Notes under the pieces: generated by a model
Told to the model about the DNA's origin: nothing
The model's input: the letters and a program-made list of their open reading frames with translations, nothing else
Database searches by the model: none
In this document: positions 1,101-60,733 of the stretch, one piece after another
Layout: each line of letters starts with the position of its first letter
Numbering within the stretch: the first letter of the stretch is position 1
Source: an uncultured Acidobacteriota bacterium
Lineage (GTDB): Bacteria; Acidobacteriota; Thermoanaerobaculia; Thermoanaerobaculales; Thermoanaerobaculaceae
Length of the DNA stretch: 64,000 nucleotides
Direction of reading: 5' to 3'
Assembly (NCBI GenBank): GCA_963727275.1
Contig: CAVSFK010000004.1
Span: forward strand, 69,076 to 133,075
Program-made: the position numbers and the translations under genes

Positions 1101-1113
1101 GTCCGGGCGCCGC

Positions 1114-1311
1114 CGATAGCGGACCATCTGCGTTGTCGGACTTCGGCGGCTCGGCTCCTCACGTACCCTCCGGGTACGCTCCGGGCCGGCCGCCTCGTCC
1201 TCCTAGCATCTGGCCCACTCTCGGCGGCGCGGCTACGCGCCGTGCTGCCGGGCCCTGCCTCTGATGCTGTGTCGTTTCGCTTTCGGACCCCGGACCCCGG
1301 ACCCCGGTCCT
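1114..1311 (+). repeat. ~200-nt intergenic repeat family, copy 1 (hairpin CGTACCC-TCC-GGGTACG at 1162-1178; 3' tail of CGGACCC heptamers at 1284-1311)
   Basis: Long stretches are identical to the reverse complement of 59574-59762 (cgatagcggaccatctgcgttgt, cctagcatctggcccactctcg, gcgcggctac.cgccgtgctgc) and to 43116-43324. It fills the convergent gap between def and the PDZ gene. Confidence 0.7.
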
Positions 1312-41913: not shown

Positions 41914-43113
41914 ATGAAAGAGCTACTGCCGGCCCGAACCCAGGAGTACCAGGCGCGTGCGCACGAGGTCGCGGAGAAGTTCGTCCGCCCGGTGGCCGCC
42001 GAGCTCGACCGGACCGGCGAGTACCCGTGGACCGTGATCGACGCGCTGCGGGAGTACGACCTCATGGGGATCTGGATCCCGACCGAGTACGGCGGCCACG
42101 GCGCCGGGGTGCTCGACATGTGCATCGTGGTGGAGGAGCTGTCGCGCGCCTGCGGCGGCGTGGGCGTGGCGTACGCGGTCAACGCGCTCGGTTCCTTCCC
42201 GATCGTCCTGGGCGGGACGGACGACCAGAAGCGCAAGTACCTCCCATCGGTCGCCAAGGGCGAGCGTCTGATCGCATTCGGCCTGTCGGAGAAAGCCTCC
42301 GGGTCGGACGCGGGCTCCCTGCGGGCGCGGGCGCTGCGCAACGGCGACGGGTACGTCGTCACCGGCGACAAGAAGTGGACGACCAACGCGAACGCCGCGA
42401 CGATCTACACCGTGTACGCCTCGACGAACCCGGAGCGCGGCACGCGCGGGGCCTCCGCCTTCATCCTCGAAAAGGGCACGCCGGGTTTCGAGATCGGGCG
42501 CCGCGAGCAGCTCATGGGGATCCGGTGCGTCCCCGTCCACGAGCTGCACTTCCACGACTGCAAGGTGCCGGCCTCCGCGCTGCTCGGCGAGAAGGAAGGC
42601 GCGGGGTTCGCCAACGCGATGATGACGCTCGACCGCGCCCGCCCCGGCGTGGCGGCGCAGGCCGTCGGGCTGGCCCAGGGCGCGCTCGAATGGGCGATCC
42701 GCTACACCTCCGAGCGGCAACAGTTCGGGCAGAGCGTGATGTCGTTCCAGGCCGTCCAGTTCATGCTCGCCGACATGGCGATCCAGGTCGAGGCGTCACG
42801 CCAGCTCGTCTACACCGCGGCGCGGGCCATCGACGCCGGGCTGCGCAACGTCTCCAAGCTCGCGGCGATGTGCAAGGTGCTCGCCACCGACACCGCGATG
42901 CGCGTCACGACCGACGCCGTGCAGCTGTTCGGCGGGTACGGCTACTGCCAGGACTACCCGATCGAGAAGTACATGCGCGACGCCAAGATCACCCAGATCT
43001 ACGAGGGCACCAACCAGATCCAGCGGGTCGTGATCGGCAGGGCGCTGACTCGGGAGGCGGATCAGATCGCGGGGCATCTCACGGTCAAGGTCGAGCACCC
43101 CCCCAAGCCTTAA
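41914..43113 (+). CDS. acyl-CoA dehydrogenase
   Basis: GLSEKASGSDAGSL, KKWTTNA, QLFGGYGYCQDYPIEKYMRDAKITQIYEGTNQIQ. Confidence 0.92.
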   Translation: MKELLPARTQEYQARAHEVAEKFVRPVAAELDRTGEYPWTVIDALREYDLMGIWIPTEYGGHGAGVLDMCIVVEELSRACGGVGVAYAVNALGSFPIVLGGTDDQKRKYLPSVAKGERLIAFGLSEKASGSDAGSLRARALRNGDGYVVTGDKKWTTNANAATIYTVYASTNPERGTRGASAFILEKGTPGFEIGRREQLMGIRCVPVHELHFHDCKVPASALLGEKEGAGFANAMMTLDRARPGVAAQAVGLAQGALEWAIRYTSERQQFGQSVMSFQAVQFMLADMAIQVEASRQLVYTAARAIDAGLRNVSKLAAMCKVLATDTAMRVTTDAVQLFGGYGYCQDYPIEKYMRDAKITQIYEGTNQIQRVVIGRALTREADQIAGHLTVKVEHPPKP

Positions 43114-43115
43114 CG

Positions 43116-43324
43116 GGCGCCGCCGGCGTCGGACCTCTCGCGGCGTTGCGCATCGCGGCCTCGCATCCTCACGTACCCTCCGGGTACGCTCCGGTGCGGG
43201 CCGCTCGCGCGCCTTGCGATAGGCCCAACGGCGGCGGCGCGGCTACCCGCCCCAAGCTGCGAGGCCCTGCCTTTGGTGTTGTGGTGCTGTCGTTCTCGGA
43301 CCACCGGCCACTGGCCACCGGCCA
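43116..43324 (+). repeat. ~200-nt intergenic repeat family, copy 2 (hairpin at 43172-43188; CCGGCCA-type heptamer tail at 43297-43324)
   Basis: Shares gggcgccgcc..., catcctcacgtaccctccgggtacgctccgg, ggcggcgcggctac and ggccctgcct with copy 1. It lies between the acyl-CoA dehydrogenase stop and the tmRNA 3' end. Confidence 0.65.
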
Positions 43325-43370: not shown

Positions 43371-43723
43371 TGGTGGAGGCGGGGGGAATCGAACCCCCGT
43401 CCGGAGGACTTGGGCCGCAGGTGTCTCCGTGCGCAGCCTACGGTTGGTTCTCGTCACGGCGGCTGGGCGTAGGCTCCCGACCGCCGCGACCAGCCCGATT
43501 TCTCTCGACCGCCGCTGCCGGGCGAAGCGGCGGTCCAGCCTGCTTTGGCGTCGCCGTGATCAGGTTCGCAGGCGGGAGCCGGCGATCACGACGTGACTGC
43601 GGTTAGGCAGCCAGTGCTAGCTCAGTGTTGGCAGCTATGAGTGTCCGCCTGTTTAACGTGGCGGCGGGCCACGACACGCTGCCGGCGACCCAACATGTCC
43701 CCCGTCGAACCCGGTACGCCCCC
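43371..43723 (-). ncRNA. ssrA: transfer-messenger RNA (tmRNA)
   Basis: The reverse strand starts GGGGGCGTACCGGGTTCGACGGGGG and ends GGACGGGGGTTCGATTCCCCCCGCCTCCACCA. The acceptor stem has a G3:U pair. The tag ORF GCT GCC AAC ACT GAG CTA GCA CTG GCT GCC TAA (43635-43603) encodes (A)ANTELALAA*. Confidence 0.93.
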
Positions 43724-59573: not shown

Positions 59574-59762
59574 GGGTCCTGGGTCCTGGCCGATACCAGG
59601 ACGACCAGAGCAGGAAGAAGCAGGCCGCCGCAGCACGGCGTGTAGCCGCGCGGTCGAGAGTGGGCCAGATGCTAGGCGCGCGAGGCTGCCGCACCGGAGC
59701 ATAGCCGGAGGCTATGTGAGGATGCGACGGCCGAGCGCAACAACGCAGATGGTCCGCTATCG
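59574..59762 (-). repeat. ~200-nt intergenic repeat family, copy 3 (inverted; hairpin CATAGCC-GGA-GGCTATG at 59700-59716; GGGTCCT heptamers at 59574-59587)
   Basis: The reverse complement aligns with 1114-1311 over nearly its whole length. It lies in the convergent gap between the PHP gene and cysK. Confidence 0.7.
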
Positions 59763-59800
59763 ACCGCGCAGATGCCTCGACGCCGGCGGCGCCAGCGGGC

Positions 59801-60733
59801 TCAGTCGAGGCCGGCGAACAGGTCCGTCGAGATGTACCGCTCCGACGTCGACGGGACCACGAACACCACGAGCTTGCCCGCGTTCTCCGGCCGGCTCGCC
59901 ACCGCGACGGCGGCGTGGGCGGCGGCGCCCGAGGAGATGCCGGCGAGGATCCCCTCCTCCTTGGCGAGCCGTCGGGCCATCACGAACGACTCGTCGTTGC
60001 TCACCTGAACGACCTCGTCGACGAAGTGGGTGTCGAGGTTCGCCGGGATGAAACCGGCGCCGATCCCCTGGATCTTGTGCGGGCCCGGCGCGCCCCCGGA
60101 GATCACCGGCGAGTGGACGGGCTCCACCGCGACGATGCGCAGCTCCGGGCGGCGCGCCTTCCATACGCGCCCGACGCCGGTCAGGGTGCCCCCGGTCCCC
60201 ACCCCGGCCACGAACACGTCCATGCGCCCGTCGGTGTCGCGCCACAGCTCCTCGGCCGTGGTGGCGGCGTGGATCGCGGGGTTGGCCGGGTTCTCGAACT
60301 GCTGCGGCATCACCGCGCCCGGGATCTGCTCGAGCAACTCGAGCGCCTTTCGGATGGCGCCCTTCATCCCGTCGGAAGCCGGGGTGAGGACGAGCTCCGC
60401 CCCGAGCAGCTTGAGCACCTTCCGGCGCTCGATCGAAACGCTCTCCGGCATCGCGATGACGCAGCGGTACCCCTTGGCGGCCGCGACCATCGCGAGCGCG
60501 ATCCCGGTGTTTCCGGAGGTCGGTTCGACGATGACCGAACGGCCCGGCGCCAGCTTGCCGTCGCGCTCCATCGCCTCCACCATGGCGACCCCTATGCGGT
60601 CCTTGACCGAGTGAGCCGGGTTGAAGAACTCGAGCTTGGCGGCCACCGTGGCCGCGCACCCCGAGGTGATCCTATTGAGCCGGACGAGCGGCGTGTTGCC
60701 GATGAGTTTCGTGATGTCTGCAGCGATCCTCAT
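59801..60733 (-). CDS. cysK: cysteine synthase A (O-acetylserine sulfhydrylase)
   Basis: [18 protein letters not shown] (PLP lysine), [22 protein letters not shown]. Confidence 0.93.

What the first reader, a model, noticed from the sequence alone, without database searches (positions are those of the whole stretch)
59574..59762. Compensatory base changes preserve the hairpin in the inverted copy of the repeat family
Copies 1 and 2 carry the hairpin C-GTACCC-TCC-GGGTAC-G (1162-1178 and 43172-43188). In the same orientation, copy 3 carries C-ATAGCC-TCC-GGCTAT-G (59700-59716).

Two stem positions changed on both sides (G:C to A:T and C:G to G:C), while the loop and flanks (ctcac..., ...gctccgg) are unchanged. 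Double compensatory substitutions argue for selection on the secondary structure in RNA or single-stranded DNA, rather than simple sequence drift.
Basis: seen in the sequence. Interest (0 to 1): 0.6.

Follow-up and report, generated by a model that had tools for sequence, protein, structure and literature searches.

The report
Paired mutations preserve repeated hairpin
The small hairpin is the tip of a 125-base folded repeat that sits just after the stop codons of dozens of ordinary genes in these soil Acidobacteria. Its stems change only by matched pairs of mutations, so its shape is under selection, as in the REP, ERIC and TRIT repeats of other bacteria.

Summary
Copies 1 and 2 carry C-GTACCC-TCC-GGGTAC-G. 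Copy 3, on the minus strand, carries C-ATAGCC-TCC-GGCTAT-G: two pairs are swapped on both sides and nothing is broken.

This 7-bp stem is the apex of a 122-124-nt, five-helix imperfect hairpin with about 45-60 copies in this genome.
- **Own genome (29 full copies):** 23 of 41 pairs show two-sided changes, and 96.9% of cells pair, against 80.8% in shuffles.
- **Five other genomes (100 copies):** the result is the same.
- **Apex across 23 genomes (426 copies):** 93% are fully Watson-Crick at the three variable pairs, in seven haplotypes. Shuffling predicts 28%.
- **Unpaired positions:** internal loops, a bulged T and the TCC loop are invariant.

At least 38 of 42 copies follow a co-oriented gene and start 1-14 nt after its stop codon. 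Copy 3 is an insertion found only in this genome. The copy beside tmRNA is shared by six species with four different compensated tips.

Selection on the fold is therefore supported. Whether RNA or single-stranded DNA is the selected form stays open. RAYT-like genes exist but are not linked to the family.

Compensatory change is already known in REP/REPIN families, so this is a new member of a known kind.

The parts
59700..59716 (-). Apex hairpin (helix 5) of copy 3: C-ATAGCC-TCC-GGCTAT-G
   Evidence: This haplotype has 58 copies in 16 genomes.
59648..59769 (-). Whole five-helix hairpin of copy 3. The foot is GCGCGGTCG/CGACCGCGC, itself a compensated variant of the usual GCGCCGCCG/CGGCGGCGC.
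   Evidence: Fold z-score -5.5. Consensus structure and pair counts.
59615..59647 (-). 3' tail of copy 3: GGCTAC-ACGCC, a variable stretch, then CCTGCTTCT
   Evidence: Alignments. A weak terminator-like site was called in the tail.
59778..59793 (-). Remnant of the 5' end of another copy (GGCGCCGCCGGCGTCG), lying between the upstream stop codon (59801-59803) and copy 3
59801..60733 (-). Upstream co-oriented gene; its stop codon precedes copy 3. The orthologous site has no element in 18 other genomes of the genus.
1107..1230 (+). Five-helix hairpin of copy 1 (apex 1162-1178). It starts 6 nt after the stop codon TGA at 1098-1100.
1231..1262 (+). 3' tail of copy 1 (GGCTACGCGCC ... CCTGCCTCT)
43117..43240 (+). 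Five-helix hairpin of copy 2 (apex 43172-43188). It starts 3 nt after the stop codon TAA at 43111-43113 of an acyl-CoA-dehydrogenase-like gene.
   Evidence: Orthologous copies in six species carry four different compensated apex types.
43241..43274 (+). 3' tail of copy 2 (GGCTACCCGCC ... CCTGCCTTT). The locus-specific signature CCCCAAGCTGCGA is shared with the orthologues.
43371..43723 (-). tmRNA gene, convergent with copy 2. Used as the anchor for orthology.

Best explanation
**What it is.** The hairpin is the apex of a dispersed 122-124-nt repeat. The repeat folds into one long imperfect hairpin of five helices separated by invariant internal loops and bulges. A short conserved tail follows (GGCTAC-RCGCC ... 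CCTGCCTTC).

**Where it sits.** There are about 45-60 copies per genome in one genus, and in a few neighbouring genera, of Thermoanaerobaculaceae (Acidobacteriota). Nearly every copy lies directly after the stop codon of a gene that reads into it.

**Shown here.**
- Base pairing in all five helices is kept by purifying selection. Single-sided changes are rare, two-sided changes are common, and the unpaired motifs do not change.
- New copies are still being inserted: copy 3 is specific to this genome.
- Old copies are overwritten by other copies through gene conversion or replacement. This mixes helix variants among copies without breaking pairs.

**Inferred, not shown.** The selected form is most likely the 3' end of the upstream gene's mRNA. 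There the hairpin would define or protect the transcript end, as proposed for REP, ERIC and TRIT elements. The invariant loops suggest that a protein reads the fold.
For: - **Covariation in this genome:** 41 predicted pairs, 23 with two-sided changes, 96.9% of cells paired against 80.8% in shuffles, and slid controls far lower.
- **Replication in other genomes:** 100 copies from five other genomes give the same picture.
- **Apex:** 396 of 426 copies in 23 genomes are fully Watson-Crick, in seven haplotypes, against 120 expected.
- **Unpaired positions:** 16 of 42 unpaired columns are invariant, and paired columns vary more.
- **Polarity:** 38 of 42 copies lie downstream of a co-oriented gene. 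Full copies start 1-14 nt after its stop codon. Binomial p is about 6e-8 (my calculation).
- **Stop-codon proximity in other genomes:** 57 of 86 copies have a stop triplet within 14 nt upstream, against 15 of 86 in a control window.
- **Insertion:** the copy 3 site is occupied in 1 of 19 genomes of the genus.
- **Turnover of old copies:** the tmRNA-locus copy is shared by six species. Its hairpin is 79% identical between them, against 88% for the adjacent coding sequence and 93% for tmRNA. Every version is still fully paired, and four apex types occur.
- **Wobble at the apex:** T.G wobbles outnumber A.C mismatches 15 to 5 on the sense strand.
- **Known parallels:** compensatory stem variants and gene-end location are documented for REP/REPIN families (PMC3116915, PMC3733652). 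Narrow spacing from the stop codon is documented for TRIT (PMC3152330).
Against: - Transcription and 3' ends are therefore untested.
- The hairpin is not followed by a U-tract.
- Over the whole hairpin, G.U pairs are barely commoner than A.C mismatches: 5 to 10 in this genome and 57 to 35 in others.
- Pair swaps show no excess of the transition type (30 transversion-type against 14 transition-type). This is not the usual signature of RNA-level selection and fits a DNA-level constraint equally well.
- The cells counted are not independent events. The main haplotypes are old and have been amplified by copying.
Confidence: 0.7

Rival explanations
1. The selected form is folded single-stranded DNA, and the hairpin is the substrate of an HUH/Y1 (RAYT-like) transposase that copies the element, as in the REPIN model. 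Pairing and the invariant bulges would then be kept because only well-formed hairpins are mobilised. This partly overlaps the best explanation.
For: - Five Y1_Tnp genes are present. One passes the NCBIfam REP-associated tyrosine transposase cut-off, 88.4 against 80 bits.
- Copy 3 is an insertion specific to this genome.
- There is almost no excess of G.U over A.C, and the pair-swap spectrum is unbiased.
- On the bottom strand, a GTAG tetranucleotide lies 2 nt from the hairpin foot. It appears as GGCTAC in the tail of 25 of 29 copies. This is the position of the REP tag described in PMC3733652 and PMC8266576.
- Conserved bulges are required by TnpA-REP in E. coli (PMC8266576).
Against: - No family copy lies within 1.5 kb of any RAYT-like gene.
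- Each RAYT-like gene is flanked by its own unrelated (G/A)TAG-GGTACC inverted repeats.
- The element is three to six times longer than REPs.
- The tag is missing in copies from other genera.
- The model does not explain the fixed polarity or the 1-14 nt spacing from the stop codon of the upstream gene.
Confidence: 0.3
2. The compensation is mutational and not selected. Intrastrand template switching in a quasi-palindrome, or arm-to-arm conversion, copies a change from one arm to the other.
For: - Transversion-type swaps such as C:G to G:C are twice as common as transition-type swaps. That is the ratio expected if any substitution is simply copied across.
- G.U intermediates are few.
Against: - Such a process would erase mismatches. 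Instead, the 4x4 internal loop CTCA/CTCC, the bulged T, the A.C mismatch in helix 2 and other unpaired positions are invariant across copies and genomes.
- The process also does not explain the fixed placement after stop codons.
Confidence: 0.1
3. The covariation is a genealogical artefact. A few ancient subfamilies happen to differ at paired sites and were then amplified, with no constraint on pairing.
For: - The main apex haplotypes each occur in 12-21 genomes.
- Copy 3 arrived by insertion already carrying its haplotype.
- Cells count copies, not events.
Against: - Without a constraint, single mutants should outnumber double mutants. Observed: 30 imperfect against 229 compensated non-master apices.
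- Controls with slid partners keep relatedness and give 16-28 two-sided cells against 179, and 43-113 against 503.
- Foot variants seen in one copy only are compensated across about 110 nt.
- Helix variants assort almost freely, with 15-25 combinations per pair of helices.
Confidence: 0.05
4. The palindrome is a double-stranded DNA binding site (an operator) for a dimeric protein, or an integron attC-type recombination site.
For: - The arms are symmetric.
- attC sites also follow open reading frames in a fixed orientation and conserve structure more than sequence (established knowledge).
Against: - Seven apex haplotypes, and many variants of the other helices, coexist in one genome, which a single dimeric reader would not tolerate.
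- Copies are singletons behind conserved housekeeping genes in conserved synteny, not cassette arrays.
- No terminal RYYYAAC/GTTRRRY core sites are visible in the alignments. No attC model was available to test this formally.
Confidence: 0.03

Closest known systems
REP / BIME elements and REPINs with RAYT transposases (E. coli, Pseudomonas, Stenotrophomonas)
   Same: - High-copy extragenic palindromes, mostly downstream of genes.
- Subfamilies differ by complementary stem changes (PMC3733652); compensatory changes are 'common' in REPINs (PMC3116915).
- Conserved bulges and a GTAG tag next to the stem (PMC8266576).
- Mosaic arrangements with other repeats.
   Different: - The unit is one hairpin of 122-124 nt with five helices, not a 20-40-nt stem-loop or a doublet of two such units.
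- No RAYT gene is flanked by it.
- It has a strict polarity and lies 1-14 nt from the stop codon.
- It has an asymmetric 3' tail.
- It occurs in Acidobacteriota.
ERIC / IRU (enterobacterial repetitive intergenic consensus, about 127 bp)
   Same: An imperfect palindrome of about the same length, dispersed in transcribed intergenic regions and able to fold as one long RNA hairpin (established knowledge; mentioned in PMC3184786).
   Different: - No sequence relation and a different phylum.
- ERIC is not tied to stop codons within a few nucleotides.
- Copy numbers and host range differ.
TRIT motif of Mycobacterium (Gardner et al. 2011, PMC3152330)
   Same: - A hairpin repeat conserved in both sequence and structure (147 copies).
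- A very narrow distribution relative to the nearest stop codon.
- Restricted to one lineage.
- Proposed to act at transcript ends and to be read by a factor.
   Different: - TRIT is short and mostly bidirectional, and overlaps the end of the coding sequence (about position -8).
- This element is about 125 nt, is polar, and starts after the stop codon.
- No sequence similarity.
Canonical intrinsic (Rho-independent) terminators
   Same: A G+C-rich hairpin directly downstream of a gene, in the sense orientation.
   Different: - No U-tract after the hairpin.
- Far longer, with conserved internal loops.
- A repeated family with shared sequence.

Membership tests
REP/REPIN-RAYT system | High-copy, extragenic, palindromic repeat | tested here: met
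   - 50-60 nhmmer hits in the genome.
- 37 of 42 strong copies overlap no called gene.
- The fold z-score is -5 to -7.
REP/REPIN-RAYT system | A cognate RAYT gene flanked by members of the repeat family | tested here: not met
   - Five Y1_Tnp genes are present.
- No family copy lies within 1.5 kb of any of them.
- Their flanks carry unrelated (G/A)TAG-GGTACC inverted repeats.
REP/REPIN-RAYT system | Short (20-40 nt) stem-loop unit with an unpaired GTAG (or CGTC) tag at one end; REPIN = inverted doublet of such units | tested here: inconclusive
   - A GTAG lies 2 nt from the foot on the bottom strand in 25 of 29 copies in this genome.
- It is absent in other genera.
- The unit is a single 122-124-nt hairpin, not a doublet of REPs.
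REP/REPIN-RAYT system | Binding and cleavage of the folded single strand by the RAYT | not testable with these tools
   Needs a gel-shift and cleavage assay with purified protein.
Intrinsic terminator | G+C-rich hairpin followed within 0-2 nt by a U-rich tract | tested here: not met
   - No site was called at copy 1.
- At copy 3 the only site is a weak 5-bp stem in the tail, not the main hairpin.
MITE | Terminal inverted repeats matching an autonomous IS, plus target-site duplication | tested here: inconclusive
   - The filled copy 3 site was compared with empty sites. No clean duplication is visible, and the junction is complicated by a remnant of another copy.
- No parent IS was searched for.
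Rfam families (any described structured RNA) | Match to a curated covariance model | tested here: not met
   - The only hit in the window at gathering score is tmRNA.
- Nothing below E = 8.8 was found over copy 3.
TRIT / ERIC | Sequence homology to the Mycobacterium or enterobacterial consensus | not tested
   - No model of either family was available.
- All hits of the apex pattern among 185,579 species genomes are in Acidobacteriota MAGs, apart from three or four stray matches.
- The relation is therefore one of analogy.
Integron attC site | R''/R' core sites (RYYYAAC ... GTTRRRY), cassette arrays, nearby IntI | not tested
   - No attC model was available.
- By eye, the alignments show no core sites at the ends.
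- Copies are singletons behind syntenic housekeeping genes.

The most novel reading that the evidence does not exclude
The element may be more than a passive stabilising hairpin: a device coupled to translation termination and read by a dedicated protein.

- **Spacing.** The foot starts 1-14 nt after the stop codon, so a terminating ribosome must melt the first helix.
- **Conserved unpaired motifs.** CUCA/CUCC, a bulged U and the UCC triloop are conserved across genera while every stem drifts. This points to a specific reader of the folded strand.
- **Possible role.** Such a system could link the end of translation to the fate of the transcript, in a phylum where canonical terminators are scarce.
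Probability: 0.12. Interest if true: 0.75.

Novelty: new member of a known kind. Interest (0 to 1): 0.5.

Why it matters
This repeat family has more than twenty covarying base pairs, replicated across genomes. It meets the evidential standard used to call a structured nucleic-acid motif, and it occurs in an uncultured soil and peat lineage (Thermoanaerobaculaceae) where gene-end signals are unknown.

It gives a ready-made natural mutagenesis table for experiments: which positions may swap, and which loops may not. It also marks real gene ends for annotation.

It adds a case outside the Proteobacteria to the open question of whether REP-like repeats are selfish DNA, host RNA elements or both. 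Compensatory evolution in such repeats is not new in itself.

Tried and rejected
- **Over-permissive regular expression.** It gave thousands of chance hits and was replaced by nhmmer-anchored extraction.
- **Alternative hairpin.** A pairing between the 3' strand of the foot and the tail appeared in the minimum-energy fold of copy 1. It would have suggested a switch. RNAalifold on 25 tails found only a 3-bp stem with no covariation, so it was dropped.
- **RAYT linkage.** Checked by proximity and by flank similarity; negative.
- **Rfam.** Searched at gathering score and at E up to 10; nothing found.
- **De novo RNAalifold on the 100-copy alignment.** It failed on the outer helices because of gaps and about ten copies with a different 5' module. 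The structure from the own-genome alignment was projected onto it instead.
- **G.U against A.C asymmetry, as a test of RNA against DNA.** Inconsistent: 15 to 5 at the apex, 5 to 10 in this genome, 57 to 35 in other genomes. Reported as inconclusive.
- **Canonical terminator scan.** Not met.
- **attC and dimer-operator readings.** Rejected on anatomy and context only.

Full report
**1. The observation.**
- Window 1162-1178 and 43172-43188 carry C-GTACCC-TCC-GGGTAC-G on the + strand.
- Window 59700-59716 carries C-ATAGCC-TCC-GGCTAT-G on the - strand.
- The loop (TCC) and the flanks (CTCA..., ...CTCCGG) are identical in all three.
- Two of the seven pairs differ on both sides and none on one side.

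For these three copies alone I estimate the chance of this pattern at about 0.002 (four substitutions in 14 positions forming two complementary pairs; my calculation).

**2. What the hairpin belongs to.** The three copies align over about 170 nt. Each folds into one long imperfect hairpin, with z-scores of -5.1 to -6.8 against shuffles. nhmmer finds 50-60 copies in the 4.47-Mb, 70% G+C genome.

The anatomy runs 5' to 3' in the orientation of the upstream gene:
- the stop codon, then 0-14 nt;
- five helices (foot GCGCCGCCG/CGGCGGCGC, then helices 2-4, then the 7-bp apex), separated by internal loops and bulges, 122-124 nt in all;
- a tail, GGCTAC-RCGCC, then about 15 variable nt, then CCTGCCTTC;
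- often, heptamer arrays after the tail.

Some copies are mosaics. In these, about 120 nt is inserted behind the 5' module, or another repeat replaces the 5' module. No Rfam family matches the element.

**3. Covariation in this genome.** A sequence-only MAFFT alignment of 29 full copies (A2) gives an RNAalifold consensus of 41 pairs. Of these, 23 show two-sided changes that keep the pair.

| Measure | Observed | Shuffled | Partners slid 1-3 columns |
|---|---|---|---|
| Cells paired | 96.9% | 80.8% (0 of 500 shuffles reach it) | 32-44% |
| Two-sided cells | 179 | 57.5 | 16-28 |

Further points:
- Paired columns vary more than unpaired ones (mean entropy 0.55 against 0.43).
- 16 of 42 unpaired columns are invariant. 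They include the 4x4 internal loop CTCA/CTCC around the apex, a bulged T and the TCC loop.
- Helix variants assort almost freely between helices (15-25 combinations per pair of helices). Copies therefore exchange segments.

**4. Replication elsewhere.** The pattern CTCANNTANCCTCCGGNTANNCTCC leaves all six variable apex positions free. It was run over the 42 genomes of the family and found 426 apices in 23 genomes. Of these, 19 belong to this genus and 4 to three other genera. The reversed-pattern control found none.

396 apices (93%) are Watson-Crick at all three variable pairs, in seven haplotypes:

| Apex haplotype | Copies |
|---|---|
| CGTAGCC/GGCTACG | 167 |
| TGTAGCC/GGCTACA | 120 |
| CATAGCC/GGCTATG | 58 |
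| CGTACCC/GGGTACG | 37 |
| CCTAGCC/GGCTAGG | 7 |
| CATACCC/GGGTATG | 6 |
| TTTAGCC/GGCTAAA | 1 |

Shuffling the 3' letters gives 120 fully paired apices on average, and never more than 144 in 2000 trials. The haplotypes of copies 1/2 and of copy 3 are each one pair-swap away from the commonest type.

I then fetched 100 copies from five other genomes and projected the same 41-pair structure onto them. The counts were:
- 94.5% of cells paired, against 81.7% in shuffles;
- 503 two-sided cells, against 160 in shuffles and 43-113 in slid controls;
- 24 pairs with two-sided changes.

**5. Position and polarity.** I used a crude ORF caller (long ORFs with GC3 at or above 0.8).
- 38 of 42 strong copies lie downstream of a co-oriented gene.
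- Full copies start 1-14 nt after its stop codon. The value is 6 nt for copy 1 and 3 nt for copy 2.
- Copy 3 starts 31 nt after the stop codon, because a 16-nt remnant of another copy lies in between.
- In the other genomes, 57 of 86 copies have a stop triplet within 14 nt upstream of the foot, with a mode at 1-3 nt, against 15 of 86 in a control window.

Copy 3 is 'inverted' only because its upstream gene is on the minus strand.

**6. History of the window's copies.**
- **Copy 3.** The orthologous site between two convergent genes is occupied in this genome only, out of 19 genomes in the genus. In several relatives the two genes abut or overlap. Copy 3 is therefore a lineage-specific insertion that brought its CATAGCC/GGCTATG apex with it.
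- **Copy 2.** It lies between an acyl-CoA-dehydrogenase-like gene and tmRNA. An element sits directly after the same stop codon in six species. Four of them share the locus-specific tail signature CCCCAAGCTGCGA. Three species with the same neighbouring gene lack the element.
- **Divergence of the copy 2 orthologues.** The six carry four apex types and differ in every helix, yet all are fully paired. Their mean identity is 79%, against 88% for the last 300 nt of the gene and 93% for tmRNA.

Old copies are thus rewritten faster than their surroundings, most simply by conversion from paralogues, and pairing is always retained.

**7. RNA or DNA?**

Points favouring RNA:
- the strict sense polarity and the abutment to stop codons;
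- 15 T.G against 5 A.C at the apex on the sense strand.

Points favouring DNA, or neutral between the two:
- Over the whole hairpin, G.U is hardly favoured over A.C: 5 to 10 in this genome and 57 to 35 in others.
- Pair swaps are 30 transversion-type to 14 transition-type. This is the 2:1 ratio expected with no wobble route.
- There is no U-tract.

Transcript data could not be obtained. A purely mutational 'palindrome correction' is unlikely, because the mismatched loops are never corrected.

**8. RAYT.** The genome has five Y1_Tnp genes of about 320-330 aa with a DnaA-like C-terminal helix-turn-helix. One passes the NCBIfam REP-associated tyrosine transposase cut-off. None is within 1.5 kb of a family copy. 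Each is flanked by its own short inverted repeats of the type (G/A)TAG-GGTACC-N-GGTACC, present in only a few copies. One lead remains: on the bottom strand a GTAG lies 2 nt from the hairpin foot in most copies of this genus, where REPs carry their tag (PMC3733652, PMC8266576).

**9. Comparison with what is known.** Earlier work already describes the main features of this kind of repeat:
- Compensatory changes across REPIN hairpins are described as common (PMC3116915).
- REP families are routinely split into subfamilies by complementary stem residues and lie mostly downstream of genes (PMC3733652).
- TRIT hairpins of Mycobacterium show a very narrow distance to stop codons (PMC3152330).

The phenomenon is therefore known. 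This family, in uncultured Acidobacteriota from peat, fen and soil (record titles), has no description that I could find. It differs in size, in its polar tail and in lacking a linked transposase.

Earlier notes of this scan on this genome and two others reached the same reading. I re-derived their main claims independently here.

**Verdict.** The element is a new member of the REP/ERIC/TRIT kind. The selected molecule (RNA or single-stranded DNA) and the copying mechanism remain open.

Noticed in passing
genome contigs outside the window: C2:16831-17787, C12:220017-221009, C12:~128150-129164, C9:~328620-329615, C9:~807700-808679: Five paralogous RAYT-like genes (Y1_Tnp plus a DnaA-like C-terminal helix-turn-helix, about 320-330 aa). 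Each is bracketed by its own short inverted repeats of the form (G/A)TAG-GGTACC-N-GGTACC, which have only a few copies in the genome.
   Followed up: partly
window 59778-59793 (- strand): A 16-nt remnant (GGCGCCGCCGGCGTCG) of the 5' end of another family copy lies between the stop codon and copy 3. A similar duplicated 5' stub precedes the tmRNA-locus copy in genome G032 (L013). This suggests that copies insert into, or recombine with, older copies.
   Followed up: partly
L013, L014, L017, L018, L020 (tmRNA loci of sister genomes), between the element and the tmRNA 3' end: A second, unrelated G-rich repeat (about 90 nt, ...GAGCGCGGAGCGGGATTCACTCCCGCGGAGCGCTGGGGGG...GGGTGGGTGGGGGAGTGGACGCGGGACCCCCCGA) occurs one to three times next to tmRNA in several genomes. 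It is absent at this locus in the window.
   Followed up: no
G036 and G031 loci such as L027, L031, L032, L036, L054, L064, L074, L093: About one copy in ten has its 5' module replaced by a different conserved sequence (...GACCCCCCG.GCCCCCCGCGAGCCGCGGCGGAGCCGCGTCTCGCC...). The family therefore forms mosaics with at least one other repeat. In this genome the same junction appears as copies that start about 120 nt after the stop codon.
   Followed up: partly
genome contigs, e.g. C2:56960-57130, C9:63093-63258, C6:412659-412787, C10:591745-591874: A sister subfamily shares the first ~22 nt (CCGCCGATAGCGGACCATCTGC) and the tail. Its interior is different and longer (TTCGCTTCGCTCGGGCGGCCCG...CCCCACGT...TGGCGCGGCCGCCTCG), and it lacks the TCC-loop apex.
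   Followed up: no
L169 (Paenibacillus timonensis), L210 (Pseudomonadota MAG), L222 (Bdellovibrionota MAG): Single exact matches of the 25-nt apex pattern outside Acidobacteriota. They may be chance, contamination or mis-binning.
   Followed up: no
G036 (10 contigs): Apex matches are 44 on the forward strand and 9 on the reverse strand of the contigs, far from even. This may reflect gene-strand or replichore bias in the contigs as deposited.
   Followed up: no
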